This document shows positions 3,884-33,044 of a stretch of DNA of 64,000 nt, piece by piece. Within the stretch, counting starts at the first letter, position 1, and every line of letters starts with the position of its first letter. The notes under the pieces were generated by a model, which did no database searches, had not been told where the DNA came from, and saw only the letters and a list, made by a program, of their open reading frames with translations. Both the position numbers and the translations under genes were made by a program. Source of the stretch: Trichodelitschia bisporula (lineage: Eukaryota); NCBI GenBank assembly GCA_010356995.1, contig ML996690.1, positions 203,101 through 267,100 of the forward strand, in the 5' to 3' direction.

Positions 3884-3906
3884 AGCTTAAGCAGCTTGAT
3901 TCTTTG

Positions 3907-8081: not shown

Positions 8082-8728
8082 GGTGGCAACGGTGGTGAGG
8101 GGAGGTGTTGCGGAGTAAAGAATGGAGTGAGGTTGAGAAGAATGTATGGCTGCAGTAAGCTACTGTAAGGGTTGTACTCCCATGACTCAATTAGCGACAG
8201 GCCAAATCGTCGCGATGTGGTCAAGATGAGAAGGATAGAGGCGGCATATCGAAGGTGCGTTGGGCACGTAGTATGGAGTTGCGGCAGGAAGTTTGGACTG
8301 CGTTTCGCGACACCACGGGGTCACGCGTCTGTGGCGGGGTCCTGGAACATCGTTGTTCCCCTTCCGCCTGCCATGTCGTCAGACGTCGATCTTGAGCCTG
8401 ACTTCAAACGAGGCATGCGCATCTCGTTCAAAGACATTCCCTCCTGCTTGATTTCAAACACCTGACCGCTCTCTTTTGCTTCTTCAACAACGGTTCGCCT
8501 TTCAACCGTTCGCCGGTTTCCACTCCTTCCCAAGGCCTTCATGTCCGCTTCCACTTCCCTCCGCCCCAAAGGTACTCACTCAGTCACCCCGCCCTCTGCC
8601 TACTTTCACCAGCGCGTCTCCAAGCTGACTCCCGAGTCGCAGAATCCTCCACCGCTCATATCCGTCAACTTCCTTGTCTGACGGGTGATCCCACATGCTG
8701 GCTGGCGCGCTGAGCCTCGCCGGTCACC

Positions 8729-11700
8729 ATGGCTCGATCGCGCAGTCCGTCCGCCTCCTCCGCCCTCTCCTCTATATCCTCTCGGCCGACGCTGGACAAA
8801 GAGGCGCTGTCGCTTGCCCTGGACCAGATTCACACTTCAGCTTCTCGAACCGATACCCTCACTACGTTCGATGACTTCGCCGCGCCTCCACGCCCGACCA
8901 GCAGCAATGAGACCAAAACCTTCAACGCGGGTGAGATAGTTCCAGGCGGTTTGAGCGGATTATACAGTCGAATCAAGGCATCAGTTGGCGCGGCGAGAGA
9001 TGCAGTGTCTGGTACTACGGTCGATAGTGCCGATGACGCCTCTCTCAAAAGTGTCAAGCCCAAGCCTTTGGTGGCCAAAGTCTCCGTTGCGACGACTGCT
9101 GTCAACGCGGAATCGACGCCCTCTTCACGCCTACAGTCGCCTCTATCGGCAAAATTTTCGGATGCACCGGTCACAGTCAGCGAGAGCTCTGAGTTCCCCG
9201 GCAAGCTTCCACCTCCACCACAGGAAAGGCTACAGCCCGGGAGTGCGGAGTCGCTGGTGCGGGCTCCGAAGGGCGGTGATCGGTCTCCCGATAGTGCCCG
9301 CCGCAAACAGAGTAGCGGAGAGGCGTCTATGAGCAGGCCGCGTCCGTCGGATGCTTCGCTTGAGGGCACGATATTGCTCAGGCCAGCCGATCCCTTGGTT
9401 CCTGGCATTAAGCTACAAGATACGAGGCTGAAGCAAGTCGGATTTGGGGTCTCGAGGGACGGTCCTGTGGATCCTGCCAGGCCTCGAAATGTGGTCACGT
9501 CTGCGCCAACCTCAAAGGGGGCGCCCTTCGTGCAAATGCTTGATTTTAGATCTAGACAGGATTCGTCCGGCCCCTTGGCGGAGGTGTCTGGTTCGTTCCA
9601 AGGCTCGGGGGAACCTTCTGCCACGCCAAACCTCTTGTCTGCCGCCGGCAGCAACTCGCGTCCGCCGCTTCTTCAAATAGGTGCTTCTCACCTTCCCGGC
9701 TACCGCCCGTCTCGTTCAAACTCTTCCGAAGGCGACTTTAGCTCGGTAGCGACGATGATCGCCCCCGTACGTCGTCCGCATTATGAGGATATCGAAGAGC
9801 ACCCCAGACCCACTCATGTTGACGAAGATCACATCTCACGGATGAGGAGCAAGATATTAGCCAAGGAACTGTGGATGCGAGATGAAAATGCGAAGGACTG
9901 CTTCTATTGCGGAGACACCTTCTCGGCATTCCGGAGAAAGCATCACTGCCGCATCTGTGGGAATATCTTTGACTCCAAATGCACTACGCTGGTCGATGGC
10001 AAGATGTTTGGGCAGTCAGGCAGAATTAGAGTGTGTACGGGATGTGAAGGCATCGTTTATGGCACGGACGACGACTCATCTGAGTACTCAGACGATGGCT
10101 CTGTCGCACATCAAACTTCCCCTCGCAACACTGCAGACTGGACACCCTTGGTCGGGCAACAGAACTGGGAGTCCGGAGCCCAGGATGACCACTTGACCGT
10201 TGGCACGCCTACGATGGGCATCCCTGTATCGTGGGAGTCAAAACGGCGGTCTGCCGTCATCGAGTTTGACAATGAGCCTTCTCTAGCGCGTCCCAGCTCG
10301 TCCCGATCACTCAGGTCGTTGAGTGGCCACCCACGATCTTCCACTCACAGGCGTCACTTGTCACGCCATGGCCATCAGCACATGAAAAGTCTTAAAGGTC
10401 TCACTGATGACCGTGCCCCCTTTCAGGGCCATGATATGGAGTCAGTGAACAAAGGCTTTCTGCTCCCTGCCTTCCACCACGACAATATTATTGACCCTGA
10501 TCTTGCGCCTTTTCTATCCGACGACGGTTCGAGTGAAGAAGATACACCTAGCATATTTGCAACCCTAAACTCGGACCCACACTCCCCTACAAGAGGCGAA
10601 ACCGATCGGTCAGGCTTTGGGGGCCTTTTCTCATCCGTCCGCCGGGGCAAAACCTGGGCTGACCGAAATGTACCAATAGGCCACGCCAGTGGTGCTGACA
10701 CTATGAGTATGCTGGGAAGGGCCAACTCGCGCCACAACCGCAAGCGCACCTTGAGCGTCAGTAGCATCTACCATCCTCGCCCCTCCCCCAGGCGCACGAA
10801 GAGCAAGAGCTTGTTGAATGGATTCTCTTCTAATATGCCCGCATCGCTGATGCCAACTGGCACCCCGAAGAACCCCCCTCTGCCCAGCCGCGGGCCGAAC
10901 AAGATGATGCGCAGCGCGTCGATGCGCGGGGCCTCCGCCCCCGTTGTTGAGCTCAACCAGGCGAGCTTGCTGCACGTGCGACGCATGCTGAAGCAGATGT
11001 TACAGGATGCTCAGATTCCGAACTCACGGCGGTGGGAAAAGGCGTTACGGCCCATCTTGCTTCAGTGCACCGATGACGTCAATCCGGACATTCAGCGCAA
11101 CGACGATATTGACGTCCGTCATTACATCAAGCTGAAGAAGATCCCAGGTGGGAAACCAGGCGATACCAGCTATGTCTCTGGAGTGGTATTCACGAAGAAC
11201 CTCGCACTGAAGAGCATGCCGCGGAGTATCCCTCAACCACGGATTGCCATTGTTGCATTCCCGATTGAATATACCCGGCACGAACAACACTTCATGAGTC
11301 TTGAGCCTGTGATCGCGCAGGAGCGCGAATACCTGTGGAATCTCGTCAAGCGGATCGCCGCGCTGAATCCACAGGTGCTACTGGTGGAGAAGAACGTCGC
11401 CGGGCTGGCCTTGGATTTTCTCGAGCAGGCTGGCATTGCCGTTATTTGCAATGTCAAGCCCTCGGTGCTGAATGCGGTGGCACGGTGCACCCAGACTCGC
11501 CTCATAACGTCCCCGGACAAGCTCGCTATTGACCCGTCTCAATTAGGCCGCTGCGGTAGTTTCGACGTCAAGACCTACGTGCATGGAAAGATGAAGAAGA
11601 CATTTGTCTACATCAGCGGCTGTCAGAAAGATCTGGGCTGCACTATCGTACTGCGCGGCGCCGAGATGTCGTATTTGCGAAAGCTGAAGCGCATAACTGA

Positions 11701-14700
11701 GTTCATGTGCTTTGTGGTGTACAACCTCAAGCTCGAGACTTGTGTCATGCGCGATGAGTTCGTCCTGATTCCTGCCGTGTTGCCTGGTGGCACATTGAAT
11801 ACCGAAAGGCGGGAAGCTAGCCCGGCCCTAGAGACTTCCGGTAGCGAAAAGGTTCAGAATGGCGAGGGGGACAACGATGAAATGATCACACAGGAGTCCG
11901 AGGCCGTGAAAGCTCAACCGGTGGCACCTGGGGCTGAAACCGCGCGGCCTGCTCCGGTCGCCACGCCGTCGTTCTACAACGATGTGGTTGAGAAGCATCA
12001 GACTAGAGTTATTTCCTCTTCCCCCTTTGTGAAATTCACTCAGCCTTACCTTCTGACCCAGGCACGCGAGTTGGAAGCGAAACTAGAACAGCTCAAATCA
12101 TTGCGCGACCAGTATCTGTCAGACTCCGAGGACACGTCGAACTCCGACCCGCATCACTTCGAGCTTGTTGAGCCTGAGATGGTCCACAGGGTCGTGGAGA
12201 AGCCGTCCAAGCAAGTCCGCGACTTCCTGTTCGCTGTCCACAACGCCGAATACGAAAAGGCCCGACATCATTACCTAACGCAGAAGCGACAGTGGGAGAT
12301 GTACCTGACCAACAATGCGAGCCTGTTTGATCCATTCAACCATCAGCGCATCGCGGTCCTGTACAGTATGGTCAACACGCGAACATCTACGCCTTGTGCT
12401 GGACCTGACATCATTGCTCTGAGCTTCTACAACGAACACGATTTGGAGCACTTCTTTCTACCTGACATCCCACTTGGGCAATATGTGGAGGACCTCTGTC
12501 AAGGCGCCGACAGCTTATGCTCTGCGAATGGCTGTGAGGATCCCATGTTCAACCACCACCGCCAGTATGTCCACGGTGACGGGCAAATGAGCGTCATGGT
12601 GCAGTCGTACCCCGCTCGGATCCGCGGCATGCAGAATACGGTACTCATGTGGAGCTGCTGCCGGATCTGTCAACGGGAGACAGGGCCCATGCCTATGAGT
12701 GAAAATACTTGGAAGTACTCATTTGGCAAATATCTGGAGTTGACCTTTTGGAGCACGGAGCTACACCCACGCAGCTCTGAATGCACCCATGACATCCACC
12801 GCGACCACTATCGTTATTTTGGGTTCAACAACATCGCTGTCAGGGTCCAGTGGGACCCAGTCAATCTGCATGAGATCATTGTCCCGAAGCCTACTATCAC
12901 GTGGAAGGTTGATTCTGACTTGAAGATCAAAAATCAACAGTATCATCGATTCAAAGAACGGCTGGATCGGTTTATGACTTCCCTCAAGACGCGAATCCGG
13001 AGTATTAACATCGAGTCAATCGCGCCCGAAAAGCAAGAGGCGTGCAAGGCGGCCATTGAAGAGCTGATGCAGCGCGCGAACGACGACCACACGGCGTTGG
13101 TCCACAACCTGCAGGAGAAGTACATGACCTCCCGTTACTACGAAGTGATCCCGATGAACCGTGCCGCCAGGGCGATTCACGAGAATTCTATTGCCTGGGA
13201 TGACGCCTTTGCTGAGTTCGAGAAGAACTTCTTCCCTTCCGAAAAGGATATTCGTCGGCTTGCGGCCATCCAGCTCAAGAAACTGTTTTTAGAGCGGGAT
13301 GAAAGCACGTCTTCGATACCCACCGTCGACGAAAGTCTTGAGGAAAAGGATATTGTCCCAGAAACTCCAGAAGTGTCCCGCAAGTTGTCAACCATGTCTC
13401 CAGAGGACACCCACAATGCCCTCAGTACTATTGTCAAGGAGCAACAACTAAGCGAAAAGGACGGCATGCACAGTTCGACCGAGGAGAGCACGCTCGCCAC
13501 TAGCAAATCTTCCACCGCCACTGTGGAGAGTCCCATTGAAGCCCTCGAACATGAAAGTGTCAAGCATCTCGATTTGGCTGTCAGTTCGGAGTTCCCCTCA
13601 CCTGCGGTGCCTGAAATGAAGGAGGTAGCTCCCAATCTTCCTCCTGAGCCACCCACTCCCCAGGCCTTGGAGCTCTCCCCTCAAGTCACCAAGAGCGTTG
13701 AGCAGATGCGGACGTCGCCGGACAAAGCAGAGGCACCGGAGACCCCCATGGTGGAGTCGAAGATTCCGCGCCCTACGCCAGAGCTGCGCCGCCCAGGACC
13801 TCGCATCTCGCCGCCTCTCTTCCGAACGCATTCCCAACCGGCTGCAGGCTTCATCCCGCGGGCGCAAAGCAGCGCAGCCCTTCCGACCAACTCCTCTACT
13901 ACGAACCTGAACACCATCCGCCCAGAAAAACTATCGCGTATGATAGCCGATCCTGCTCGGCGCATGAACTCCACTGGCTTCCGCGGCGGACGGGCTATCT
14001 CCCAGAGTTTGATTCCCCGCTCTGTGGCCGGCCCATCCTCCGTCAAGAAGGATAGTCGGGTGTCGACGCTTGCGAAGCATTTTGAACAGCTGAGCCGCGA
14101 ATTCGAGAAGCAGCGCATGCGTGACCGGGAGATGCGAGTTGAGCGCGGGCGGCAAGCTCGGGCTTATCCTCTGGGATCGTCTAAACCCATTGTCAGCGTG
14201 TACCGTGACGCGCACGAGGCGGTTCAGGAGCCGGAGAGCGAGGGGCAGAGCCGCATGGAAAGCAGTGCTGTCACCGAGTCAACCGCGGAAACCGGGACAT
14301 CCACCGAGCCGATTTCGACCGGCGATGCATCTTCGTTAGCCGAGACTCCAGTCGATATTGAAGCGCCGCCGGAGGACGAACATGAAGCCGGCGAGCCAGT
14401 TGAAGGGGAGCCGGAAGGCGAAGGCAGCGATGCCGACCATGTCAGCGTCGAAGATCACGACCTCCCAGAAACTACGGCGTCCCATTCCCCAACCGATTCG
14501 TCCCTCGAGCTGACCCTCGAGCTCCCCAAGCACGAGAAGACATCCTTAATGCGCATGCTGACGTCCTTCTGGAGCGAGCGCTCTGCCAGCGGCTGGGCGC
14601 CACTCGAGTATCCGTTCGCGAGCAACGAGCACGTGTGGGGCGACTCGGATGTGATTGTGCGCGAGGACGAGCCTAGCAGCATCATCGCACTTGCGCTCTC

Positions 14701-15774
14701 CAGCAATGATTATCTTGAGAAGGTGGCGAACTTCCGGGGCATAGACAGCGAGGAAGAGTCCGTCGAGCGCAACCTGCGGCATCCAAAGAACACGAACATC
14801 AAATACGAGTTTCAGAATCGCGGCGTGCGGGCGCAATGCAAAATCTTTTACGCGGAGAGCTTCGACGCCCTGCGTCGCAAGACGGCTGTGGCGGAGCGGT
14901 TCGTCGAGAGTCTCAGTCGCTCGCTCAAATGGGACTCCAAGGGCGGGAAGACGAAAAGTCTGTTTCTCAAGACGATGGACGATCGCTTCGTGCTCAAGAG
15001 TCTGTCACAAGTTGAGGTGAACGCCTTTTTCAAGTTCGCGCCCAACTACTTTGCCTTCATGCATCAGACACTCTTCCACGGTCTACCGTCCGTCATTGCG
15101 AAGATGTTCGGGCTTTTCCAGGTCACGATTCGCAACGCCGCGAGCGGTACCGAGTTCAACTGGTACATGCTGGTGATGGAGAATTTGTTTTACGAGCGTA
15201 CGCCCAACCGGCGGTTTGACCTCAAGGGTTCCATGCGCAACCGCAAAATTCATAGCACTGGTGACAGTGACGAAGTCCTACTGGACGAGAACCTCGTCGA
15301 CCTCATCTTCGAGAAGCCCATCTTTGTGCGCGAGCACACGATGAAGCTTCTCCGAGCGAGCGTGTGGAACGACACGCTGTTTCTGTCAAAACAGAACGTC
15401 ATGGACTACAGCCTGATGGCGGGCTTTGATGATGAAGAGATGGAGATTGTGGTTGGCATCATTGGTAAACTTCTCACCTTCATTTACTGACAAAACTAAC
15501 GCGGTTAGATTGTATCCGCACGTACACATGGGACAAGAAACTCGAGACCTGGATCAAGGACCGTGGCAAGAATAAGCCGACTGTCACATCGCCCAAGGAC
15601 TACCGCAACCGCTTCCGCATCGCTATGGGGAAATACATACTGCAGGCACCTAACAGTTGGCATCAGTTCCAGACGGCACATATTCAGGGTCGGCCGGTGC
15701 GTCTGCGGAGCGGGTATGAGGATCATGCGCCCGGTGGGCATGGTATCGAGGGGGAGAGGCTTGATGAGGAATAG
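8729..15774 (+). CDS. FAB1: 1-phosphatidylinositol-3-phosphate 5-kinase Fab1/PIKfyve
   Basis: FYVE finger ([22 protein letters not shown]), CCT/TCP1-like domain ([15 protein letters not shown]), and PIP kinase domain ([18 protein letters not shown]). Intron 15465-15508 restores [16 protein letters not shown]; stop TAG at 15772-15774. Confidence 0.96.
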
Positions 15775-17288: not shown

Positions 17289-18776
17289 TTAGGTGGGTTT
17301 GAGTTGTTCTAGGCGCGTCAAGAGAGCCTCCAACGCCCCGATGTCCATGTCAAGCAGGTCGACCGGCTGATAAGGACCCGTCGGCGGAGCGGAGAATGCG
17401 GGCGGGGTGGTCGCAGCTAAGGCGGTTTGCGGTGAGTTCTGGAAATGACGATGAACCGGTGGAGTGGTGATTGCGGGAGGAGCCACGGCGGTGGTGAATG
17501 CGAGCGGAGGCATGTCGGCGGTGAGAGGGGGAAGAGCCACAGCGGCGGCGACTGTAGTAGGAGCCACAGCGGTGGTGACTATAGTAGAAGCCACGGTAGT
17601 AGTTGGAGTGGTAGAGATGTCAGGGTTGGCGGAGGTGGCAGTTGGAAGAACGATGCTGGCAGAGCCAGTGGTGGACGCTGCAACTTGTGCAGGCGAAGCA
17701 TTCCAGTTTGACTGAGGAATTTGAGGAGCAATTTCCGGTGTCGAAGAGTTGGACCCTGCAAACGGCAGCACTCCGATCGGCGTCCTCACCGAAGTGCGCA
17801 GCATTGCAGCGGTCATGACGAGTGCAGGATCGCGCGGCGGAGCGCTCTCAACATCCATGCCCTCCTTCTCTCTATGCACCGTGGTACACAAGATCTCATC
17901 GACCAGCAGGGCCAGGCCGGGGCAGGTCGCCTCCCAGAAGGCAAACGCCTCCTTCCACACCTCAGCATCGCGGTCTGGGAACTTGCGCCGAGTGGCCGTG
18001 ATGAAGAGGTGGGCAGCCCAGCGAATCATCCGGGAGTTCATGTCAATGAATCCCTGGTAGAAGAGCAACAACGACACCTTATTGAGACCTTCTATGTTGA
18101 CTGCCTTCCGGATGGACTCGCGCAGACGGAACGGGTCGTGAAGCGGCGCTTTCAGCTCCAGCAGCTCCAGGACATGGAAGATGGAGAGGAGGGTGATGAG
18201 ATCTTCGTCTCCCTTCAGTGGATACTGGTACTTTCCATAGAAAGTTGCCGGGACTGGAACTTTGAGCGTGTTGAGCCACAAAAGGACGTTTCGAAGAACC
18301 GGGATGTCTACGTGCTCTATGAATGAAGCGGGGAGGATGAGATTCGGCTGATTAGGGTTCAGGGCACTCGCAACCTTCAGGTAGCGACACACCCAGTTCG
18401 AGACGTGGACCAACTTGTTGAGACTGACGGCAAGACCCAGAGGCATCACGGCACTCTCGCCGCTGTGTTTGACAACGATGACTGAAGGGGAGACCGGAAC
18501 AATGCTGGAGCGCAGTTTGAACTCGTCGACCGGGTGTTTGACGGTGCGGCGCCACTTCTTCAAGTCATCGGTGCCATCAATCTCTTTGGCAATCATCTGC
18601 AGGGCCGGAACAACCTCCTCCATGGAGTAGAGTGTGTGCTTCGCCAGAATCGCAGCCGTGATCACATCATAGCGGTCGAAGAGCTTGAAGAGGATGCGCA
18701 GCATTTCAGCATCGTCGATGGTCGGGAAAGCTGCCTGGTATTTGACCAGAGCGCTTGAAATCTGTACTGAAGACAT
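17289..18776 (-). CDS. Unknown-family protein, paralog A (495 aa; probable divergent BTB-like core, Thr/Ala/Pro-rich tail)
   Basis: Intronless ORF from a good-context ATG (GCACCATG). Its motif GKYQYPLKGDEDLITLLS...LLELKAPLHD is shared with the two neighbouring genes. Confidence 0.8.
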   Translation of the reverse strand: MSSVQISSALVKYQAAFPTIDDAEMLRILFKLFDRYDVITAAILAKHTLYSMEEVVPALQMIAKEIDGTDDLKKWRRTVKHPVDEFKLRSSIVPVSPSVIVVKHSGESAVMPLGLAVSLNKLVHVSNWVCRYLKVASALNPNQPNLILPASFIEHVDIPVLRNVLLWLNTLKVPVPATFYGKYQYPLKGDEDLITLLSIFHVLELLELKAPLHDPFRLRESIRKAVNIEGLNKVSLLLFYQGFIDMNSRMIRWAAHLFITATRRKFPDRDAEVWKEAFAFWEATCPGLALLVDEILCTTVHREKEGMDVESAPPRDPALVMTAAMLRTSVRTPIGVLPFAGSNSSTPEIAPQIPQSNWNASPAQVAASTTGSASIVLPTATSANPDISTTPTTTVASTIVTTAVAPTTVAAAVALPPLTADMPPLAFTTAVAPPAITTPPVHRHFQNSPQTALAATTPPAFSAPPTGPYQPVDLLDMDIGALEALLTRLEQLKPT

Positions 18777-19449
18777 GGTGCGTTCAACAATTGAGGTTAG
18801 GTTTGTGGTTTGAAAGTTTCTGCGAACGGTGATTGTTCTGACCGCAGGCAAAGAGTGAAACGATAAATGATTTTGAGAGGATGGTGCAAGCGACTGGCAA
18901 ATGATGAAAAGCGCGGAGTTTGAGGGGTGGTTGAAGGGTGAAAGAAATTGCGGTGGAAGAAGTGACGGTGGAAGAATGTTTGAGGAGAGAAAATTGAGGA
19001 TTGCTGAAGAATGAAGTTGAAAGATAGAAAATGGTGTGGTCCTCCAGGTCCGAGCAACTGAAGCATATATCTTGGCGACGTCTACCGAATCGGGATATAC
19101 CTGCCAAGCCTGCCGCATACGGTCGCGGCAAATCCAAAACTCCAAATGCTCCTTCCTTGGCCTGTGCTCAGTGTATATAGACAATCATTCACTGTTGTTA
19201 GCGAAAGTCACGGCCTGGGCGAGGGGGGGGGGGGGTACATATACCGGCTCCTCAATCTGCTTTTACACTTCTTCTTGTACAACCCATTTCACAGTTCGCA
19301 AGCCCATCATCACGCACCCCAATCCTCAGTTCTTTTTTTCGACAGCAACACCCCTCACCACACTTCGATCAACTTTACCCCCTCCTCAGTTATTCAGCCA
19401 ACAGTCTCGGACTCAGCTTTTGATCAAACGCAACTCCACTGTCTTCAAA

Positions 19450-21009
19450 ATGGTGGGTCATTCAACTCTGAAGCCCATGGCCGCGATCAAGAGACCCGCA
19501 ATCACCTTCGACACGAACACCCTTCCTCAAGCTGCTTACATGGCAGTCAAAGGCTCGGACAACACCACGGATCTCAACGGCGAGTTGATGAAGTACGGCA
19601 ACATCGTTCCAGGGGCGGATCCCGACGTGGTTCGCAAGCTGTTCCACTTGTTTGCTCGCTACCCAAATCCGTCGATGGGGTACCTTTGCAACGCCACAGA
19701 CACCAACAAGGGTCAGCTTCTCAACATTCTCAAGGCCATTGCGCAGGAAGCCACCGGCGCTGGAGAGAACGGTTGGGTGTTGTCGGTCAAAGCTCCCATT
19801 GACGCTGTTCAGCTTCCAGCCGGCGTTGTTGATGTCACTCGCGCGTTGTTTGTGGTTGTTCGCTATGACAATAAGGGGCAAGCGATGTACAAGAAGGTCA
19901 GCACGAACATCACAGTTATGAAGCTCTGTCATGCTTCTAACTGGGTGTCTCGCCACGTCTCTGTCATGAAAGTCAACGGCTCTGCAGCTTGTGATCAGCC
20001 AAAGCAGGAGTTGGTCATTACCTTCCCCTCCCACTTCGCGAACTTTATCAATCCTAACACCATCGTGCGCCTTGGACTCTGGATCGGATCCTGCCAGCTT
20101 CCTGCTAGCGCAGCCTATAAGGGTAAATACCAGTACCCTTTGGCTGGCACGGAAACACTCTACGAGCTGCTCAGCTTGCAGCGCATCGTCAACCTCTTGG
20201 AGCTGAAGGCGCCACTCCATGACATGTTCAAGATTCGGCACCTCATCATCGCCCGTCTCCAACAGGCGGATGTCGAGATTGATCGGGTACATCTGATTCT
20301 GATGCATCTGTGCTTCGGGGATGTTGACAAGCCGCTTGTTGGCTTTGCAATTGCCCGCTTCATTGAGCAAGTCCATACTGTTTGCCCCGACCCGTACGGA
20401 GGCTTATGGGCTGACATTGATGAGTTCTGGGCAACATACTACCCGGCGCTGATTCCTATCGTCAATGACATTTATATGGAGTATGAGGTCGCTCTATATA
20501 TGAACTTCCAGGATCCATCGAACTTTCCTACCATCTCCGAACTGGCTTGGAAGCACTTTTGCGTCTCGACTCGCGTCGTTGGCGCAAAGAGCGCGGGGAA
20601 AGCTCGTTCCGGCAATGGGTTTGGAGTCAAGGCCCCTGCTCATAAAGCCCAACATGTCAATGGTGGTCGGATGGTTCAGAATTCCGGGAAAAAGCATAAG
20701 GGTAGCAAGCCTCAGATTCCGAACCAGCAGAAGTCGACTTCTCAGGCTGAGGCGCTTCCTGACGCAAGGACTCCTGTCCGGGGTTCTGTGAAGGGGACGG
20801 CTCCCCTTGAGCAGATTAAAAAGCACCTGGCGAAAAATGTCAATGTCAAGGTCGTCATCAAAGAAAAGACCAACAACACGAACGGGAAGCAATCCAAGGT
20901 CGACACCAACAACGGAAAGCATCCCAAGGTCCACGTTGAGGGTGGTACTCATCCGAAGGCCACCGTCAACGACGGCAATCAGCTGAAGACCAGCAACCAT
21001 GTGGAGTAG
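19450..21009 (+). CDS. Unknown-family protein, paralog B (519 aa; the frame stays open 59 more codons after the TAG, to 21189)
   Basis: ATG in TTCAAAATG context; motif GKYQYPLAGTETLYELLS...LLELKAPLHD; transcribed divergently from paralog A. Confidence 0.82.
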   Translation: MVGHSTLKPMAAIKRPAITFDTNTLPQAAYMAVKGSDNTTDLNGELMKYGNIVPGADPDVVRKLFHLFARYPNPSMGYLCNATDTNKGQLLNILKAIAQEATGAGENGWVLSVKAPIDAVQLPAGVVDVTRALFVVVRYDNKGQAMYKKVSTNITVMKLCHASNWVSRHVSVMKVNGSAACDQPKQELVITFPSHFANFINPNTIVRLGLWIGSCQLPASAAYKGKYQYPLAGTETLYELLSLQRIVNLLELKAPLHDMFKIRHLIIARLQQADVEIDRVHLILMHLCFGDVDKPLVGFAIARFIEQVHTVCPDPYGGLWADIDEFWATYYPALIPIVNDIYMEYEVALYMNFQDPSNFPTISELAWKHFCVSTRVVGAKSAGKARSGNGFGVKAPAHKAQHVNGGRMVQNSGKKHKGSKPQIPNQQKSTSQAEALPDARTPVRGSVKGTAPLEQIKKHLAKNVNVKVVIKEKTNNTNGKQSKVDTNNGKHPKVHVEGGTHPKATVNDGNQLKTSNHVE

Positions 21010-21920
21010 GCTCACGTCAACATCCAGGAGACGAAGCCTACCGATGCGAAGCCTGCCGTGGCGGACGGCACTGCGGTCGACAACACTACTACTACGGGTC
21101 CTGCGCTGGCCACCACTACCAACGCTACCAACGACTCTGACGGGTTCGTTGCCCAGGGTCGTAAGCGCCGCGTGAGGAAGTCAGGTTAGATGGTTGAACA
21201 CTGTGATGGACTTTGTGTAGAACTTACTACTGCGGGCATCATCTGCATGCTCAGCTAGTGATGAGTTTGAAAGATAGCCAATCAATTTATCTTAAAAATG
21301 ATCGTGCTTGCTGAATCGCCAAATCGTGAGCCCAGCATGACCGGGCCCATGATTGAACATGTTAAGGGACGTAGTATGTTGGTGTGATGGCCCTTGAAGT
21401 GACGTAGAACTAAACTCGCGATACCCCTGTCCGGCTCCCGGCCCCGTAAAGCTTATATTCTTAGGACCACGGCATGACTGGATCTGAAGATATTGGACGC
21501 GTACCAATCCGACAATTTCCTAGTCACACCCTTACTACAGGACCCGATGACTCTAAGAAACGTCCCGCGAACCATGGTACCTTCAAAATTTTGGTAGTAG
21601 GCTACGATTACTACGGTCGCTTCTACGCGCCGCTGGCAACGGATCCTAAACTTGATATGAATCCCTTCGCAATGTGTACCAAAAGAACCCTCTCATGACG
21701 CGAGAGTGGGATTATGTATACGTGTATCTTGAATGGGTACTTGTCCACTGGCACTTTTGCCTATCCTTTGTTCCAGTTCCCGTGAGTATAAAGTCTGCTG
21801 GTCTCCCTCAGAACTCACCCTGTCTTCAACCTTCTCCCCGCTCCACACACGCTACTACTCATTCAGCCATCACTCAACACATCCATCACTCAGTTTACTC
21901 CACGCTCAATACAATTCAAC

Positions 21921-23405
21921 ATGGCGCCCAGCTCCGTCATCTCCGACTCCTCTACCGCCTCCAACTCCTCTACCGCCTCCGACTCCTCTGCATTCTCCGG
22001 CTTCTCTACCGACTCCTACTTGTCTTTTGCCTCCGACATCTCCACCCCATTCTTGGGATTCAATCCTCACGCAATAAATTCCAATATGTCTCCTAGCTCC
22101 AAAATCTCTGACTTCTCTACCACTTCCGACATCTCCACCCCATTCTTGTGGTTGTACGGGTATCCCCACGCGATAAATTCCAACATATCTCTCAGCTCCA
22201 TGATCTCCGACTTCTCTACCGCTTCCGACTCCTCTACCGCCTCCCACTCCTCTACCAAATCCGATACCTCTGACGTCACCCAGATCTTACCGCAGTTTGT
22301 TCAAAAAGCGCAAAATGAAGGCTTGGAAATTTTTCAAATCGCTTTCCCGGCCTCCGACCCAAACGTGGTTCGGCAGCTTTTTACTGCTTTAGACAGATTC
22401 AAAAACAATACTTCAAAATATCTATCCGAAGTTACCGGCAAAGATCTGTCGGTCCTCCTCCCAGCGCTCACGATGATCGCTCAGGAGCACAAGCCCTCAG
22501 GTCGCGGTGACTCGTACTGGACGCGATTAATTGGTATCCCGCGTCCAGAGGACCTTGCGAAGTTCTGCGGCTACCTCGAAGAAGGAAATGAAGCAGAGTG
22601 GACCGCAGAGACGTACCCAGCGCTGTCTATGGAATCCCCCGAACTAGCATAGTATGTTCGCTGCTTGCGTAAAAGCATCAAGTGTAGGAACTTAGCTTTG
22701 ACTTCCAACCTGTTTGCCCGCCGAGTATCGGCTCACCGATGTCCGCCGATGGGAGATTGCTGGCAGTCATGCGTGATTGCGTGCTCTCTGGAAATTGACG
22801 CTACGTGTGTGGAGCGAGGTACTCAATGGCTGACAACCGTTGACCTGTCTTCGTCCGACCGTTATCAGGGGAAATTTCAGATGCCGCTTACAGGACGCGA
22901 GACCTTGCAAGAACTCTTATCACTTCAATGGCTGGTCGACGGCCTGGATCTAAAAGCACCATTCCACGACCAGTGGCGTCTCCGCAAAGCCATAATGTCC
23001 CGTCTTAAAAAAATCCAACTCCCAACAATAACCCACCTGGCAATGACCTACCTCTCTTTCAACGAGTTCGACAAAGTCTTTGTCCGCTGGGCCGCAATCC
23101 GGTGTGTCGAGAGTTTGTGGTTGCTCTACCCAGCAAACCGTTTTGCTAAGCTGTACCCTGACTTCTGGGAAGAGTACTATTCCGAGGTGTGTGAGATGGT
23201 CGACGAGTTGTGCGCAGATCCGCGAAGCAAGGGCGCTCTCACGGATGATCTGCCGATGGAAGGATGGTCGTGGCCATATGAGACCGACGCCTTCGAGGCC
23301 TATCAGGACTGGAGCAAGTGCCGGTGGAACTTCCGTCAGCCGGCGACAAAGGATCTAAGCGAGGAGGGCTTCATGTTTCCCGGGCGGAAGGGGCGTGCGA
23401 AGTAG
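21921..23405 (+). CDS. Unknown-family protein, paralog C, interrupted by one in-frame TAG at 22650-22652 (recoded gene or pseudogene)
   Basis: ORFs 21921..22652 and 22665..23405 are in the same frame. The N-half (FPASDPNVVRQLF...LTMIAQE) and C-half (GKFQMPLTGRETLQELLS...LDLKAPFHD) both align colinearly with A and B. TATAAA at about 21787. Confidence 0.75.
21930..22260 (+). repeat. Internal Ser-rich repeats in the 5' part of paralog C
   Basis: About 18-bp units (CTCCTCTACCGCCTCCGA-like) plus a ~95-bp duplication encoding SDISTPFL...PHAINSN twice. Confidence 0.75.
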
Positions 23406-24704: not shown

Positions 24705-26427
24705 ATGCGGGCCAGACCCGTCCCTATAAGACGCCTGCTGCCTGCTCCGCAGCGCGTTTCCCGTCTCACCCCGCGCTTCCTCTCAACCTCACCCGCGATC
24801 CGCACCGACTGTGACCGCCCACGCATCACCCTGAAATTCACCCGCGACTTCCTCGAGAAACACGCCACACCACGCCGCACAATGCCAGACCTAAAAGTCA
24901 AGCTCACGGCGCCGAACGGCACCGAATACACACAGCCGACAGGGCTGTTCATCAGCAATGAATGGGTGCCCAGCAGCGACGGCGGGACCATCACCAGCAT
25001 AGACCCTACGTACCGCCCCCTCACTGCTTGCCCGGCACCCGCTAACCCTTCTCAGGACCGAAGAAGTCATAACCTCCGTCTCCGCCGCAACAGAGTCCGA
25101 CATCGACGCCGCCGTCCGCGCCGCCCACCGCGCCTTCAAATCAGAGTGGCGCTCCTTCGAAGGAACAGCCCGCGGTGCATTGCTCTACGAATTAGCCGCC
25201 CTCGTCGACGCGCATGCCTCCACCCTCGCCGCCATCGAAACATGGGATAACGGCAAGCCCTACACCGTCGCGCTGACCGAAGACCTGGTCGAAGTATCCG
25301 CCGTGCTGCGGTATTACGCCGGGTGGGCAGACAAGATCTCCGGCAAGGTCATCGACACCACTTCTGCGAAACTGACCTACACGCTGAGGCAGCCGCTGGG
25401 CGTGTGCGCGCAGATTATACCGTGGAATTATCCGCTGGCCATGGCGGCGTGGAAACTGGGTCCTGCGTTGGCGGCGGGGAATACGGTTGTGCTGAAGGCG
25501 GCGGAGCAGACGCCGCTCAGTATACTGTATCTGGCGGAGCTGGTTAAGAAGGCCGGTTTCCCGCCAGGCGTGGTGAATGTTGTGAACGGGTATGGCCGCG
25601 TGGCGGGCGCGGCGCTGGTACAGCATCCGCTTGTTGCGAAAGTGGCATTTACAGGCTCCACAGCCACGGGGAAGGAAATCATGAAGATGGCGGCCGGCGG
25701 GCTGAAGAACATAACGTTGGAAACGGGCGGCAAGTCGCCGTGTCTTATCTTCGCAGATGCGGATCTGGATCAGGCGGTGAAGTGGGCGCACGTCGGCATC
25801 ATGAGCAACATGGGGCAGGTGTGCTGCGCCACAAGCCGCATCTACGTGCACGAGGATCTGTACGAGAGGTTCCTGGAAGGGTTTGCCGCGAGAGTGAAGG
25901 AGGTGAGTGTGATTGGGAGTCCGTGGGAGGAGGGCACGTTCCAGGGCCCACAAGTCACGAAAAGGCAACAAGAACGCGTGTTGGGGTATATCGAGGCGGG
26001 ACTGAGTGAGGGCGCGCGGCTTGTTACCGGCGGTAAGGAGGCTGCAGGGCAGGGAAAGGGGTTCTTCGTCGCGCCGACTGTGTTCGCGGATGTGCGTGAG
26101 GATATGCAGGTCGTCAAGGAGGAGGTTTTTGGTCCCGTCGTTACTGTCTCATCCTTCAAAGACGAGGACGAAGTCCTGGCCCGCGCGAACGATACCATGT
26201 ACGGCCTGGGCGCGGCGGTGTTCACGGCCGATATTGCAAGGGCGCATCGCATTGCGGCGTCCTTGGAGTCGGGCACGGTGTGGGTTAATAGTTCTAATGA
26301 CGGCGATTTTAGGGTGCCGTTTGGGGGGGTCAAGATGAGTGGGATTGGGAGGGAGTTAGGTGAGGCGGGGCTGGATGGGTATACGAGTACGAAGGCAGTT
26401 ATGGTTAATTTGGGGACGAGATTGTAG
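24705..26427 (+). CDS. NAD(P)-dependent aldehyde dehydrogenase (ALDH1/2-like); alternative start at 24882
   Basis: IIPWNYP, FTGST, catalytic LETGGKSP and NMGQVCCA, EEVFGPV, PFGGVKMSGIGRELG. Intron 25010-25055 joins the two ORFs in frame. Confidence 0.94.
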
Positions 26428-27974: not shown

Positions 27975-30291
27975 GTAGGTGGACGGTGTAGTAATGGATG
28001 ACTGATGTGTTGGTTCTCGTGTCTTTGCCCTGGACGTGCTTTTAGCGTTGTATTGTTTGAACCGATCCGGCTCTTGTCGAGGTGGTTATGGAAGGAGCAT
28101 TCTTATGTAAGCAAGGGACATGATGTAATGCGAGTATGATAGAAGGAAGGAGCAAAGGAGGATACTTGGCATGGTGTACTTAAACCTCGAGAGTCTCTGA
28201 CTCTCTTCCTCTCTCCGTCTTCAACTTCAATCTTCAGTTTACACAGATGTTTTGCCTGTGTACGAAGCTCTGCTCCCATCACTTGTCCCAGCCCTGTCCC
28301 AGCGTCATACTGTCGGCCCGTGCTCACACAGACGACGTCGTGCCCTCGGACCGACATCCTACATCGAGTCACTCCCCGCCCATCCGAGCAAGCGTCTCGT
28401 GCCGCGCCGCGCCGCATTGCGGGGATCCCCGCTACTCAATGGCGGCTCAAAACGAAGAAGTTCTAGAACGCCACATTAGCAAATCGGGACCGTCCCTTTT
28501 GGCGTCTGGCTTATGACCGTCTCCCTACGGTAGAACTAGTATTTGTTCCCCTTTTCCCGCGCCCGTGATTCTCAACCCATGACCTTCGCACGTGCGGCCA
28601 AGACTGCAAACTAGCGGGGATATGTGTGCATGCCTAGCGTAAGGCCCAAGCCATTCGAGAAAGTCGTAGCTGCTTGCCATAGCATCCTTGCCGACGACAG
28701 TGACAATGATTTTTTACGGATAGCTCTTGGCCTCGCGGCCGGGAAACGGAAGAGGGCGAGGAAGCGATAGCACTGGGCTATCACGGTTAACGGGTAATGT
28801 TGACAAGATGTCCGATGCAATGCGTGCGGAGGGCTTGAGTCGGGTTGCTCTAGGCCCTTATTCGTCACTCTCGTGGTGTGCTACGAGGCAATGCTGTGTC
28901 AGCCTGGGCAAGGCGAAGGGTGAGGGAGCCGGGAAGCCGAGCATGTCATCCGATGCAGGCCGGTTGCTGCTGTGTGGGTTGGGACCGGAAAAGGGAACGG
29001 TGAGCAGCCGGTGAAGGCTGGTGCCGGGGATTGCCTGCGAGCGCGATGGTCCCAACGCGGAATTGGCGGGGTTGAACGCCTCGTGGACGCGCGATGCAGA
29101 TCGGCTCGCTTCGGGGGTTGGCGAGGCGCGGCGGGGAGGCCCAGAGTCTGGGTGGTGTCCCGCGAGCCGGGCTGGGTTCTGGAAGGTTCGGTTCATGGGC
29201 TTCAGCCTTGAATGTAAGGCTGTTCTTCGAGGGTTAGGCTGATTTATACCGTAGCACTGCGGATGTAGTCTCTCAACCGATCTGGCCCTTCCGGTGTGAT
29301 GGGTTGACAGGTCATGTGATTTGGGGAAGCTTTCCATGTGTGCGACGGCATGAGCGGGCTCCGAGCCCAAGGCTCGGCTTCTTCGTTGCCCAGAGCCCAG
29401 AATTGTTTCCCGGTGCAGCGCAGCGTGCAGCGCGGCGCAGCCTTGTGTGTCTCGGCGGCTTAGCATCAGATGGGGGAGTGTGGGAGGTTGGGCTCGAAGG
29501 GCGAGATGGGGAGAGAGCAATTGGGTGTCGATGGGATGGGTTGCTGGGCATTCGCTGGGCATTGAAGGAGCTGGTGAGTGCTAGTATGTTCGCGGGGTTG
29601 CGATCTTTGTCCCTTTGTCCCTTTGTGCGGAAGGGGGAGTGAATGGGATGCTTGGTTGGTGAAGGGGGGGAGGGAGGGGATGCCTAGCTAGTGCTGGTGG
29701 GGGAGGAAGCTGTGGAGTGGGGCAGGGTATGACGATTTTTTATGGAGCCCTTGGGGCTCAGTGCGTGACTGGGCGCTTTGCATGATGGAGTGAAGCGGGA
29801 GTGGTGAGAGGGAGCGAGTGAGGGCGTGAGGCGAGAGGGAAAGGGAGAGGGAGAGGGAGAGGGAGAGATGGATGGTCCTTGGTGTTTGCAGAAGGGGCAT
29901 GGATGAGCATTAGTAAACAGCAGAAAATAGTTGCCAATTGAAGACATCCCGTCTCAACATTGACGACTTGCTGATGCAACAATTCAAGAAAGAATTGGAG
30001 ATAACCGTGGTTGATGTGAAGCCAGCAAGTTGTGTGCATCACGTCGTTGCAGCAAGGGAAGTTGGTGGTTGTTCCGTCACTGCCAGCAACTTTGGTACCG
30101 TTGCACTCTGCGGCCCGTTCGCAACACACACGTCTTGTCCTTCAGTCATTCTCCTCTCTTGTTCCCGCTCCCTCCGCCTCCCGCTATCCGCCATCCACCA
30201 TCCACCGTCCACCATCCACCTCTCTTCTCTCTCTCCACTCACTAACTCACTCACTCTCCTCCAAAGTCAGTTGAGTAGGTGCGACGACAAC

Positions 30292-30321
30292 ACCACCACC
30301 ACCACCACCACCACCACCACC
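30292..30321 (+). repeat. (ACC)10 microsatellite in the pyrimidine-rich region upstream of PPZ
   Basis: Read directly from the sequence. Confidence 0.9.
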
Positions 30322-30702
30322 GACATCACCAACTACCTCTTTATTCACTCGAACCCCTTCTACATCTACCTCCTCCTTATCGTCGCCGTCACCTTCCTTC
30401 TGCACAAAAACACCCACCTCCATCCCACGCGCACCGCCACAAACTGGCGCAGAGACGAGACCCGTCAGCGTCGCTCGTTCCTTCCTCTGCAACCCTCTCA
30501 GCGCCTCGCTCTTCCCTCGTCTCGACTGGTCAACTCCAGTCGCGCTTTCTCTCGTTTCTCCAGCGCCTGTACCGACCTCCTTAATACTTCCCTTGACGCA
30601 ACACCATACCTAAGACCTTATCGCCACCTCCCCGTACAATATTCCCCACCCTCCGTCACCACTTATCGTTTCACCTCACCCACATCCCACACCCACACCG
30701 CA

Positions 30703-32364
30703 ATGGGGAACCAGTCCTCCAAAGAGAAAAAGTCCAGTGATGCCAGCTCCATCACTTCCGCGAAGGACCCGGGCTTTGGTAGCTACCCCTCCTTCAGCCG
30801 CAGCGAGACACGCGACTCTGCGCGCAGCATCAAGACTGCTATTCTCTCCAAGATCCCCACGGGGAAGGACAGCCCGCGCTCGTCCACTCCCGCGTTAGGG
30901 GAAGCAGAGAAGACTGATAAATCGGACGCAGGCAGTGTTAAGTCGGCAAAGCAAAACGGCTCCCGCTCGCAGCGCGGCTCAACGACATCGCTAGTGTCTC
31001 CCACCGTCGATTCTTCCGTCGTGCTGCCGGACGTTCCGCAGCCGCCGCCTTCTCCTTCGCAGAGCACATCGTTGGGCCACGGTCATAGCGCTGTTGGTCG
31101 GGCGCAGCGTAGCGGCGAGGTGGACAATGTGTCAGAGCGACCACCGTCGGGAATGCCGCCACATTTGCAAAATGCTCAACCTAAGGAGTCGATACTGATG
31201 AAGCGCGATTCGCCGGCACCGCGCTTTGTTCGGGAGCAGAGCACTACGGAGTCTGGCTCGCCCGTGGAGCTGGCTGCGCTGAAGACGATCGATCTTGACG
31301 ACATGATTACACGCCTGCTGGATGCAGCATATGCGGGCAAGGTCACGAAGACGGTGGTGCTCAAAAATGCCGAGATCCATGCCATCTGCCGCGCCGCCCA
31401 GGAGGTCTTCCTTTCGCAGCCGTCGCTCCTCGAACTTTCTCCGCCAGTCAAGATTGTCGGGGACGTGCACGGGCAGTACACGGACCTGATCCGCATGTTT
31501 GAGATGTGTGGATTCCCGCCACATTCCAACTTCTTGTTCCTCGGTGACTACGTCGACCGCGGCAAGCAATCGCTCGAGACAATCCTTCTTCTCCTCTGCT
31601 ATAAGCTCAAGTACCCAGAGAACTTCTTCCTGCTGCGTGGGAACCACGAGTGTGCGAACGTGACGCGCGTCTACGGCTTCTACGACGAGTGCAAGCGGCG
31701 CACTACGATCAAAGTCTGGAAGTCATTTATTGACACCTTTAACACTTTACCCATCGCCGCTATCGTTGCAGGCAAGATCTTCTGCGTGCATGGCGGGCTT
31801 TCGCCGTCGCTGAGCCACATGGACGATATTCGCCAGATCCAACGGCCGACCGACGTTCCGGACTATGGATTGTTGAACGACCTACTGTGGAGCGACCCTG
31901 CGGAGATGGAGAGCGACTGGGAATCGAATGAGCGGGGAGTCAGTTACTGTTTTAGCAAAAAGGTCATCATGGAGTTCCTCCAGCGACACGACTTTGATCT
32001 TGTCTGTCGAGCCCACATGGTGGTCGAGGATGGGTACGAGTTCTTCAGCGACAGGATCTTGGTGACTGTGTTCTCTGCGCCAAACGTAAGTCTTTCGTAT
32101 TTGTCTCTCGTATAATTCTGACTGTCCAGTACTGCGGCGAGTTTGATAATTGGGGCGCTGTCATGTCGGTATCGGCAGAGCTGCTCTGCAGCTTCGAGCT
32201 GCTAAAGCCGCTGGACTCGAGCGCGCTGAAGAGCCACATCAAAAAGGGGCGGAACAAGAGGGAAAAGATGCTGAACAGTCCGGTAAGTTGGATTGAAGAT
32301 GCACTCGGTCCTTTCGTATCTAACCCATTCGCAGCCCGCCAACCAATATCCGCAATCTTTCTAA
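30703..32364 (+). CDS. PPZ1: Serine/threonine protein phosphatase Z (PPZ, PP1-related)
   Basis: N-myristoylation-type start MGNQSSK, Ser-rich N-terminus, GDVHGQ, GDYVDRG, RGNHE, and SAPNYCGEFDN after splicing. Introns 32086-32129 and 32283-32334; stop TAA ends at 32364. Confidence 0.93.
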
Positions 32365-32964: not shown

Positions 32965-33044
32965 NNNNNNNNNNNNNNNNNNNNNNNNNNNNNNNNNNNN
33001 NNNNNNNNNNNNNNNNNNNNNNNNNNNNNNNNNNNNNNNNNNNN
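32965..33044. other. Assembly gap (80 N)
   Basis: N run flanked by C-rich low-complexity sequence. Confidence 1.

What the first reader, a model, noticed from the sequence alone, without database searches (positions are those of the whole stretch)
22641..22667. Single in-frame TAG splits paralog C between its two conserved halves: candidate UAG-to-UGG editing site
Seen: GAA CTA GCA TAG TAT GTT CGC TGC TTG. There are 243 open codons before and about 250 after, with no other lesion and all family motifs retained downstream. Established: sexual-stage A-to-I editing in Fusarium and Neurospora restores premature UAG to Trp and prefers U at -1 and purines at +1 and +3, which this context (aTAGtA) fits. 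A GTATGT donor overlaps the stop, but the in-phase acceptors give either a 24-nt intron (too short) or a 36-nt intron that regenerates TAG, so splicing does not explain it. Alternative: a recent C-to-T or G-to-A (RIP-like) nonsense mutation, or a sequencing error.
Basis: partly seen in the sequence, partly recalled or inferred. Interest (0 to 1): 0.8.

Follow-up and report, generated by a model that had tools for sequence, protein, structure and literature searches.

The report
Real premature stop in fungal gene
One of three neighbouring copies of a species-restricted fungal gene carries a real stop codon in its middle that splicing cannot remove; it is most likely an ordinary, recent gene-breaking mutation, and repair by RNA editing is possible but untested.

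Summary
TAG at 22650-22652 lies in frame, 243 codons after the ATG at 21921, with 250 open codons after it. Contigs of two DNA runs and of one RNA run all read T-A-G, so it is not an assembly error.

An identical public protein names the source as the Dothideomycete Trichodelitschia bisporula. Its 440-aa model cannot be made from this DNA with one intron. It needs the TAG skipped, plus a 159-nt gap that deletes conserved coding sequence.

From the GTATGT overlapping the stop, only a 24-nt "intron" restores the frame. RNA-confirmed introns here are 46-61 nt.

Gene C belongs to a tiny orphan family (8 hits among 1.84 billion representatives) with a BTB-like fold. The stop sits in a variable loop early in that domain, and no relative has Trp there. 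The downstream half is as well conserved as in the intact paralogs.

Nothing specific supports editing. The UAG context is trivial, 1 of 5 flanking preferences fits, and the ±30-nt fold pairs the A in a stem. Editing is unreported in Dothideomycetes, and no sexual-stage RNA is known to be available.

Best reading: a recent nonsense mutation (about 0.6). Editing: about 0.1.

The parts
21787..21792 (+). TATAAA box upstream of gene C
   Evidence: Read directly from the sequence. The longest RNA contig over the gene starts at 21836, 44 nt downstream. Contigs cannot prove a transcript start.
21921..22649 (+). Upstream 243 codons of paralog C: a Ser/Thr-rich repeat region, then a conserved helical N-domain and the first strand of the BTB-like domain
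   Evidence: Translation. Tandem repeats at 21941-22256 (periods 18 and 99 nt). Homology to paralogs A and B. Covered by an RNA contig at 21836-22652, depth 12.5, colinear, with 0 other letters.
22650..22652 (+). In-frame TAG, the finding itself; the A at 22651 is the proposed editing target
   Evidence: Read as TAG by DNA-run and RNA-run contigs. In the model it is core residue 126, in the low-confidence loop between strands 116-119 and 128-130. The aligned residues in relatives are A, S, G, G, F, G, F; none is W.
22652..22657 (+). GTATGT donor-like hexamer overlapping the stop; probably not used
   Evidence: 15 downstream AG acceptors were tested. Only the 24-nt one (ending 22675) gives a full-length frame, and it has no branch-point-like motif. 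The 36-nt one regenerates TAG. No joint was seen in gene C, and the four GT..AG-type joints nearby skip 46-61 nt.
22653..23405 (+). Downstream 250 open codons plus the terminal TAG: most of the BTB-like domain and its helical extension
   Evidence: 0 stops in frame against 6-12 in the other five frames. Keeps 36 of 94 outgroup-majority residues, against 30 (A) and 34 (B). Model residues 109-315 match BTB structures (NPR1 7mk3_A Z 11.3, rmsd 3.6, 169 aligned; SPOP Z 8.6; KEAP1 Z 8.5).
22656..22814 (+). 159-nt stretch left out of the public 440-aa gene model; it is coding sequence, not an intron
   Evidence: The model P0001 reads ...SPELA-Y-RGTQW.... No single gap reproduces it. The plausible two-gap solution skips the TAG, keeps TAT, then skips GTTCGC...AG at 22656-22814. 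The stretch is open in frame, holds the family motif L..SN...R.V, and is covered colinearly by RNA contig 22638-22851.
19450..21006 (+). Paralog B, an intact ORF
   Evidence: About 32% identity to C over the core.
17292..18776 (-). Paralog A, an intact 495-aa ORF identical to public protein P0002

Best explanation
Gene C is the third of three tandem, highly diverged paralogs (about 30% identity) of an orphan family. The family has an N-terminal helical domain followed by a divergent BTB-like domain. An identical public protein names the source as the Dothideomycete Trichodelitschia bisporula.

A single point mutation has turned a sense codon into TAG. The codon lies in the variable loop between the first two strands of the BTB-like domain. 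The stop is present in DNA and in RNA, and no plausible intron removes it.

Translation therefore ends after 243 residues, and nearly the whole BTB-like domain is lost. The downstream 250 codons carry no second lesion and are as well conserved as in the intact paralogs, so the mutation is evolutionarily recent. It may be strain-specific.

The locus is thus a young pseudogene or nonsense allele; a truncated N-terminal product may survive. The public annotation hides the defect behind an impossible exon structure.

Shown here: the stop is real, it is present in RNA contigs, no splice rescues it, the domain layout is as described, and the downstream half is intact. Inferred: that the mutation is recent and that function is lost.
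For: - TAG and both open halves.
- DNA-run contigs at depths 438 and 211 agree with the window, and RNA-run contigs read TAG with 0 other letters.
- No in-frame intron rescues it. One search tested GT or GC donors at 22500-22652 with lengths of 35-300 nt. Of the 67 open candidates, none has a G at donor position 5, and only 8 (all with GC donors and acceptors at 22868 or 22880) have a CTRAY branch motif. The RNA contig is colinear up to 22652.
- From the GTATGT donor, 1 of 15 acceptors restores the frame, and that one gives a 24-nt intron. The confirmed GT..AG-type introns in this stretch are 46, 52, 57 and 61 nt.
- The public model cannot be derived with one gap (0 solutions). It needs the TAG skipped and conserved sequence removed.
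- The family is small and fast-evolving: 8 hits at E<=1e-3 among 1.84 billion representatives, 5 of them from this species. One of these (P0008, 200 aa) lacks about 30 conserved columns. This fits birth-and-death turnover.
- The site is variable: A, S, G, G, F, G, F in relatives. Many sense codons one step away from TAG would be acceptable there.
- The downstream half shows no decay: 0 stops, GC3 0.63, and 36 of 94 conserved residues kept against 30 and 34. This fits a recent event.
Against: - A perfectly intact 250-codon downstream frame is also what a tolerated, recoded stop would leave. This analysis cannot tell 'recent' from 'maintained'.
- The gene is transcribed in the one RNA sample, so it is not silent.
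- No other isolate or close ortholog exists in the searched collections. Whether the TAG is polymorphic or fixed is unknown.
- The two DNA runs may be the very data the assembly was made from.
Confidence: 0.6

Rival explanations
1. Restorative A-to-I mRNA editing. During fruiting-body development, the tRNA deaminase complex (Tad2/Tad3 with stage-specific cofactors) would deaminate A22651, so that UAG is read as UGG (Trp). The full-length BTB-like protein would then be made only in the sexual stage.
For: - There is a single UAG in an otherwise intact, transcribed gene.
- UAG is a preferred triplet in Fusarium, where about 9% of UAG/UAA triplets are edited and 69-71 such pseudogenes are known (PMC4817773 and PMC10776026, passages).
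- +3 is a purine.
- A 31-nt fold puts the A in the 11-nt loop of a 5-bp hairpin, CGAAC/GUUCG, at -4.3 kcal/mol.
- The downstream half is fully conserved.
- Qi et al. note that the restored residue need not be the ancestral one, and that stops occur at some editing sites in other Pezizomycotina classes whose editing status is unknown (PMC10776026).
Against: - RNA contigs read A, with no A>G listed. This is weak evidence: the stage is unknown and contigs drop minor variants.
- The hairpin is not better than chance: 25 of 200 shuffles fold as well. With ±30 nt the A is paired in a stem (z -0.25).
- Only 1 of 5 weaker flanking preferences fits.
- Editing is documented only in Sordariomycetes and Pyronema, and was reported absent in a Eurotiomycete and a Leotiomycete (PMC11156358). 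My searches found no report for Dothideomycetes.
- No relative has Trp at this column.
Confidence: 0.1
2. The TAG is now the working stop codon of a shortened gene. The 243-residue product (Ser/Thr-rich repeats plus the helical N-domain) would be functional on its own, and the downstream ORF would be a not-yet-decayed relic.
For: - The upstream part is transcribed from a position that fits the TATAAA box, and it is covered by the deepest contig of the gene.
- The N-domain is conserved in paralogs A and B and in P0005.
Against: - No family member of this short architecture was found. All 8 hits include the BTB-like part.
- The product would end inside the BTB-like domain, after its first strand.
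- Nothing shows that the truncated protein is made or stable.
Confidence: 0.15
3. Translational readthrough of UAG by a near-cognate tRNA gives some full-length protein without any change in the RNA.
For: The downstream frame is intact.
Against: The codon is followed by UAU GUU. I know of no readthrough-promoting context that matches this (recalled, not tested). No downstream structure stands out: the 101-nt fold has z 0.06. There is no precedent in this family.
Confidence: 0.04
4. A 24-nt micro-intron (22652-22675, GTATGT...AAAAG) is spliced out. This replaces the stop and eight codons by one Tyr codon and gives a 486-aa protein.
For: It is the only acceptor of the 15 tested that restores the frame. 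The donor hexamer is a good consensus. An RNA contig ends exactly at 22652.
Against: - 24 nt is about half the shortest confirmed intron in this stretch (46 nt), and it has no branch-point-like motif.
- No joint is listed in gene C.
- An RNA contig runs colinearly from 22638 to 22851, across the whole candidate intron.
Confidence: 0.03
5. The TAG is a sequencing or assembly error, and the true genome has a sense codon.
For: None was found.
Against: Contigs assembled independently from two DNA runs (depths 438 and 211) and from an RNA run of another sample all read TAG.
Confidence: 0.02

Closest known systems
Young unitary or duplicate pseudogenes made by one nonsense mutation, masked in automatic annotation by an invented intron
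   Same: There is one real stop in an otherwise intact member of a tandem gene family. The public model avoids it with a non-biological exon structure.
   Different: No intact allele or near-identical copy is available to show the ancestral codon. Recency is therefore inferred only from the absence of further decay.
[quoted passage not shown] PUK1 and AMD1, restored by sexual-stage A-to-I editing (PMC4817773, PMC10776026; passages read)
   Same: A single in-frame UAG in a transcribed, otherwise intact ORF. U at -1 and G at +1 come with the codon itself.
   Different: - No edited RNA was seen.
- The organism belongs to a class where editing has not been reported.
- The stop cannot be shown to be conserved in any ortholog, because none exists in the databases.
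- The predicted local structure is not a stable hairpin loop.
- No Trp occurs at the site in relatives, whereas in Fusarium TAG mostly derives from TGG.
BTB/POZ domain proteins with a helical C-terminal extension (NPR1 BTB-BHB, SPOP and KLHL/KBTBD BTB-BACK)
   Same: Model residues 109-315 superpose on these folds: 7mk3_A Z 11.3, rmsd 3.6 Å, 169 aligned; SPOP Z 8.6; KEAP1 BTB Z 8.5. All 50 listed rows are BTB or Skp1-type chains. The protein Atlas gives the same lead for paralog A.
   Different: - No Pfam BTB hit at E<=1.
- No PDB sequence hit to a BTB protein.
- Foldseek E-values are all above 0.001.
- The model has only moderate confidence (pLDDT 66).
- An extra conserved N-terminal helical domain has no match.

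Membership tests
Fungal restorative (PSC) A-to-I editing site | Genomic in-frame UAG in an otherwise intact, transcribed ORF | tested here: met
Fungal restorative (PSC) A-to-I editing site | A>G at the stop's A in sexual-stage RNA, absent from DNA of the same strain | tested here: inconclusive
   Only two RNA runs of one sample were found, held as contigs and of unknown stage. They read A. Contigs drop minor variants, and no raw reads could be laid.
Fungal restorative (PSC) A-to-I editing site | The organism performs sexual-stage mRNA editing | not testable with these tools
   No whole genome is held. The papers read place editing in Sordariomycetes and Pyronema only. Searches found no report for Dothideomycetes.
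Fungal restorative (PSC) A-to-I editing site | Target A in a stable hairpin loop, with the flanking base preferences beyond the triplet | tested here: not met
   The ±30-nt MFE pairs the A in a stem (z -0.25). The 31-nt hairpin is matched by 25 of 200 shuffles. 1 of 5 flanking preferences fits. These are statistical tendencies (62% of sites lie in loops), not strict requirements.
Fungal restorative (PSC) A-to-I editing site | TAG (or TGG) conserved at the site in orthologs, under purifying selection | not testable with these tools
   No ortholog was found in 5.8 billion clusters, in 1.84 billion representatives or in metagenome contigs.
Young pseudogene / nonsense allele | The stop is real in DNA and is not removed by splicing | tested here: met
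Young pseudogene / nonsense allele | Relatives or other alleles carry a sense codon at the site | tested here: inconclusive
   Distant paralogs have sense residues (A, S, G, G, F, G, F). No allele or ortholog of C itself is available.
Young pseudogene / nonsense allele | Relaxed constraint downstream of the lesion | tested here: not met
   There are no further stops, and conservation equals that of the intact paralogs. This is compatible only with a very recent lesion.
BTB/POZ fold | Sequence match to the Pfam BTB model (PF00651) | tested here: not met
   No hit at E<=1 for either half of C or for A or B.
BTB/POZ fold | Three-dimensional match over the whole domain | tested here: met
   Z 11.3 to NPR1, and 7.5-8.6 to SPOP, KEAP1, BCL6 and Skp1, over model residues 109-315. 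The model is of moderate confidence, and this was a second look at Foldseek's own list.

The most novel reading that the evidence does not exclude
The TAG is a maintained, editable stop. A Dothideomycete would then use sexual-stage A-to-I editing (UAG to UGG) to switch on a lineage-specific BTB-like protein only in pseudothecia. That would extend restorative mRNA editing to a fungal class, and to a fruiting-body type, where it has not been reported.
Probability: 0.1. Interest if true: 0.7.

Novelty: new member of a known kind. Interest (0 to 1): 0.25.

Why it matters
As it stands, this is a small correction to an annotation. A public protein model (440 aa) hides a real premature stop and deletes 53 conserved codons.

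It would matter more if the stop proved to be edited. Which classes of Pezizomycotina have sexual-stage mRNA editing is an open question in the reviews read (PMC11156358, PMC7306014). A verified PSC-type site in a pseudothecium-forming Dothideomycete would bear on whether the system is ancestral or arose more than once.

The locus is a cheap, well-defined amplicon for that test. By itself it gives no evidence for editing.

Tried and rejected
- **Whole genome.** None is held for this window. I could not look at other family copies or at the editing machinery.
- **RNA evidence.** One run search listed no holder on record as RNA. Runs X3 and X4 were guessed to be RNA, and I accept them as such because they splice out a 46-nt GT..AG intron of the neighbouring aldehyde dehydrogenase gene and have very uneven depth.
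- **RNA cover after the stop.** In X3, the summed contig depth falls from 11.9-12.5 before the stop to 2.65, 0.3 and 0 in the bins after it. Contig depth and uncovered parts cannot show transcript level or ends, so I draw nothing from this.
- **Bridging the stop.** No single RNA contig has 31 nt or more on both sides of the TAG. 62 further laid pieces were not shown.
- **Orthologs.** Two word-index searches found only the gene's own public model. The profile search found 8 family members and no ortholog. The metagenome scan gave 2 weak loci (41-43% identity over 39-46 residues), which I did not follow up.
- **Sequence-level family.** Pfam gave only sub-threshold noise, and a PDB profile search gave 4 irrelevant hits with E>0.5.
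- **RIP.** TpA/ApT is 0.66-0.78 and (CpA+TpG)/(ApC+GpT) is 1.06-1.14 in both halves, like the window as a whole (0.61 and 1.20). There is no regional RIP signature. The usual thresholds, above 0.89 and below 1.03, are recalled. A single mutation cannot be assigned either way.
- **Upstream-donor introns.** 67 in-frame candidates were found and none is credible.
- **Earlier scan notes.** There is nothing on this genome or sequence. A word search returned three unrelated cases, which did not affect my reading.
- **Positive control.** A second 'single in-frame stop' in the window (60441-62813, minus strand) lies in a canonical-looking intron of about 51 nt.

Full report
**1. The observation**

The quoted letters are at the quoted place. 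Window 22641-22667 reads GAA CTA GCA TAG TAT GTT CGC TGC TTG, with the stop at 22650-22652. The frame opens with ATG at 21921, runs for 243 codons, meets the TAG, then runs for another 250 codons to a terminal TAG at 23403-23405.

This is one interrupted gene, not two chance ORFs:
- Both halves hit two other genes in the window, in the same order and frame. Paralog B (19450-21006, + strand) gives E 1.6e-7 for the N-half and 3e-25 for the C-half. Paralog A is at 17292-18776, − strand.
- The downstream frame has no stop, against 6-12 in the other five frames. Third-position GC is 0.63 in both halves, as in the paralogs.

**2. Is the stop real?**

One run search returned four coded runs. X1 and X2 (one sample) behave as DNA, with flat depth of 438 and 211. 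Their contigs cover the site with no differing letter. They may be the data the assembly was built from, so they rule out an assembly slip rather than giving an independent isolate.

X3 and X4 (another sample and study) behave as RNA. They splice out a 46-nt GT..AG intron of the adjacent aldehyde dehydrogenase gene (25010-25055), and their depth ranges from 0 to about 4500.

In X3, one contig covers 21836-22652 (depth 12.5) and another covers 22638-22851 (depth 2.8). Both have 0 other letters and no gaps, so both read T-A-G. Neither has 31 nt on both sides of the stop, so continuity across it rests on their 15-nt overlap. No A>G and no joint is listed anywhere in gene C.

**3. Whose gene is it, and what does the public model do?**

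A protein search found one identical public protein: hypothetical protein EJ06DRAFT_519774 of Trichodelitschia bisporula, 440 aa. Its sequence passes from ...SPELA through one Tyr to RGTQW....
- No single gap in the window's DNA reproduces it (0 solutions).
- Of the 105 two-gap solutions, the only one that looks like an annotation skips the three letters TAG, keeps TAT, then skips 22656-22814 (GTTCGC...AG, 159 nt).
- That stretch is open in frame and contains the family motif L..SN...R.V. The RNA contig 22638-22851 covers it colinearly.

The model is therefore a device to avoid the stop. It is not evidence of splicing.

**4. Can any intron remove the stop?**

From the GTATGT at 22652 I tested all 15 AG acceptors within about 300 nt.
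- Only the 24-nt intron (to 22675) yields a full-length frame (486 aa), and it has no branch-point-like motif.
- All the others end in early stops.

With donors upstream of the stop (GT or GC, 22500-22652, length 35-300 nt), 67 in-frame open combinations exist. None has G at donor position 5. Only eight GC-donor ones have a CTRAY motif. The RNA contig is colinear over all of these donors.

The GT..AG-type introns confirmed by RNA in this 10-kb stretch are 46, 52, 57 and 61 nt.

A useful contrast lies elsewhere in the window. A single in-frame TGA between two long minus-strand ORFs (60441-62813) sits in a normal-looking GTAATA...CAG intron of about 51 nt.

**5. What the gene is**

Pfam finds nothing at E<=1 beyond noise. 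A profile of the three paralogs, run against 1.84 billion representative proteins, finds 8 proteins at E<=1e-3:
- the models of A, B and C;
- two more proteins of the same species (P0005 and P0008);
- three from metagenomes or Logan assemblies.

This is an orphan, fast-evolving family.

An AlphaFold model of the C core, with X at the stop and a 9-sequence alignment, has mean pLDDT 66 and pTM 0.55. Foldseek's best rows are all BTB proteins, but none reaches E 0.001. A second look by VIA-align gives NPR1 (7mk3_A) Z 11.3, rmsd 3.6 Å, 169 aligned; SPOP Z 8.6; KEAP1 BTB Z 8.5. All of these cover model residues 109-315. The protein Atlas gives the same lead for paralog A.

So the 'second conserved half' is a divergent BTB-like domain with a helical extension. 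The stop (core residue 126) lies 17 residues into this domain, in the low-confidence loop between strands 116-119 and 128-130. A product ending at the TAG would keep the Ser/Thr-rich repeats, the helical N-domain and one strand of the BTB-like domain.

**6. Age of the lesion**

At the aligned column the relatives have A, S, G, G, F, G, F and never W. The column is variable, so the alignment does not indicate which sense codon preceded TAG.

Downstream of the stop, C keeps the residue held by the majority of the six more distant members in 36 of 94 informative columns. Intact paralogs A and B keep 30 and 34. With no second lesion in 750 nt, the stop is either recent or tolerated; these data cannot separate the two.

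By my own rough estimate (an inference, not a computation), absence of a second disabling change is unsurprising up to a few percent of neutral divergence.

The dinucleotide indices show no regional RIP signature.

**7. The editing hypothesis**

What is established, from passages read:
- In Fusarium graminearum and Neurospora crassa, sexual-stage A-to-I editing converts premature UAG to UGG in about 70 'pseudogenes'.
- Edited sites have U at -1 in 86% of cases and A or G at +1. About 9% of UAG/UAA triplets are edited.
- The weaker preferences are -3 G, -2 U, +2 G, and purines at +3 and +4.
- 62% of sites lie in predicted hairpin loops when folded with ±30 nt.

(Sources: PMC4817773, PMC10776026 and PMC11156358.)

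Applied to this site:
- U at -1 and G at +1 come with any UAG, so they carry no information.
- Of the five weaker preferences, only +3 fits. The context is C A U-A-G U A U.
- With ±30 nt, the minimum-energy fold pairs the A in a stem and is no better than shuffles (z -0.25).
- A 31-nt fold does put the A in the loop of a 5-bp hairpin, but 25 of 200 shuffles fold as well.

On taxonomy, the review places editing in Sordariomycetes and Pyronema. It reports none in Aspergillus nidulans or Botrytis cinerea, and calls the distribution open. A 2020 review says pseudothecia had not been examined (PMC7306014, one passage). My two searches returned no paper reporting editing in a Dothideomycete. I saw the other listed papers only as search listings.

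The one direct datum, A in the RNA contigs, is weak. The developmental stage is unknown and contigs suppress minor variants.

**8. Verdict**

The proposed mechanism is neither shown nor excluded, and the indirect indicators lean against it.

| Reading | Probability |
|---|---|
| Recent nonsense mutation in a member of a turnover-prone tandem family, hidden by annotation | about 0.6 |
| The truncated N-terminal product is what the locus now encodes | 0.15 |
| Restorative editing | about 0.1 |
| Readthrough, micro-intron and error together | under 0.1 |

**9. What remains unexplained**

The deeper RNA contig stops exactly on the G that is both the last letter of the TAG and the first of GTATGT. 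This may be a coverage gap or a branch in the assembly graph. Raw reads or long-read cDNA are needed to tell.

Noticed in passing
window 19450-21359 (paralog B region): RNA contigs show minus-strand (CT..AC) introns inside paralog B's plus-strand ORF: 19961-20021 (61 nt, in both X3 and X4) and about 20825-20883 (57 nt, X4 only). One 4.2-kb RNA contig spans 17100-21359, so a spliced antisense or read-through transcript seems to cross B. The public model of B (P0003, 340 aa) starts at an out-of-frame ATG at 19931 and omits the N-domain, although the ORF 19450-21006 is intact.
   Followed up: partly
window 22638-22652: RNA contig record 12 (depth 12.5) ends exactly at 22652, the G of the TAG and the first base of GTATGT. 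The next contig (depth 2.8) starts at 22638. No joint or loose end is listed. The cause is unknown.
   Followed up: partly
window 19222-19235: A run of about 13 G lies between paralogs A and B. Both DNA-run assemblies break here. One RNA contig lacks one letter at 19236, and another shows an odd 52-nt skip (19186-19237, ends CA..TA). These are probably homopolymer artefacts.
   Followed up: no
window 60441-62813 (-): Two long minus-strand ORFs (336 and 453 codons) are separated by a single in-frame TGA. The stop lies in a canonical-looking intron of about 51 nt (GTAATA...CTCAAC...CAG), so this is an ordinary gene with an in-phase intron. Neither ORF has a Pfam match.
   Followed up: partly
protein P0008 (same species, another contig): This 200-aa family member lacks about 30 otherwise conserved columns (the L.W...LP.S..Y.G..Q.PL block) and ends early. 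It may be another degenerate copy, or a mis-modelled one. Its DNA could not be fetched.
   Followed up: no
window 21941-22256: The N-terminal extension of gene C is built of tandem repeats (18-nt period, 4.4 and 2.9 copies; 99-nt period, 2.1 copies at 82% match). They encode Ser/Thr/Asp-rich sequence that is absent from paralogs A and B.
   Followed up: no
window 32965-33044 and 52213-52332: There are two runs of N, 80 and 120 letters long. They are either assembly gaps or masked stretches.
   Followed up: no
window 335-15490, 25003-26427, 29917-32115, 48506-50956: The neighbours are ordinary housekeeping genes: a MutS-family gene, a Fab1/PIKfyve-type FYVE-Cpn60-PIP5K kinase, an aldehyde dehydrogenase, a PP1-type Ser/Thr phosphatase with a long N-terminal extension, and Spt5. 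The orphan triplet therefore sits in a conserved, gene-dense region rather than a repeat-rich one.
   Followed up: no
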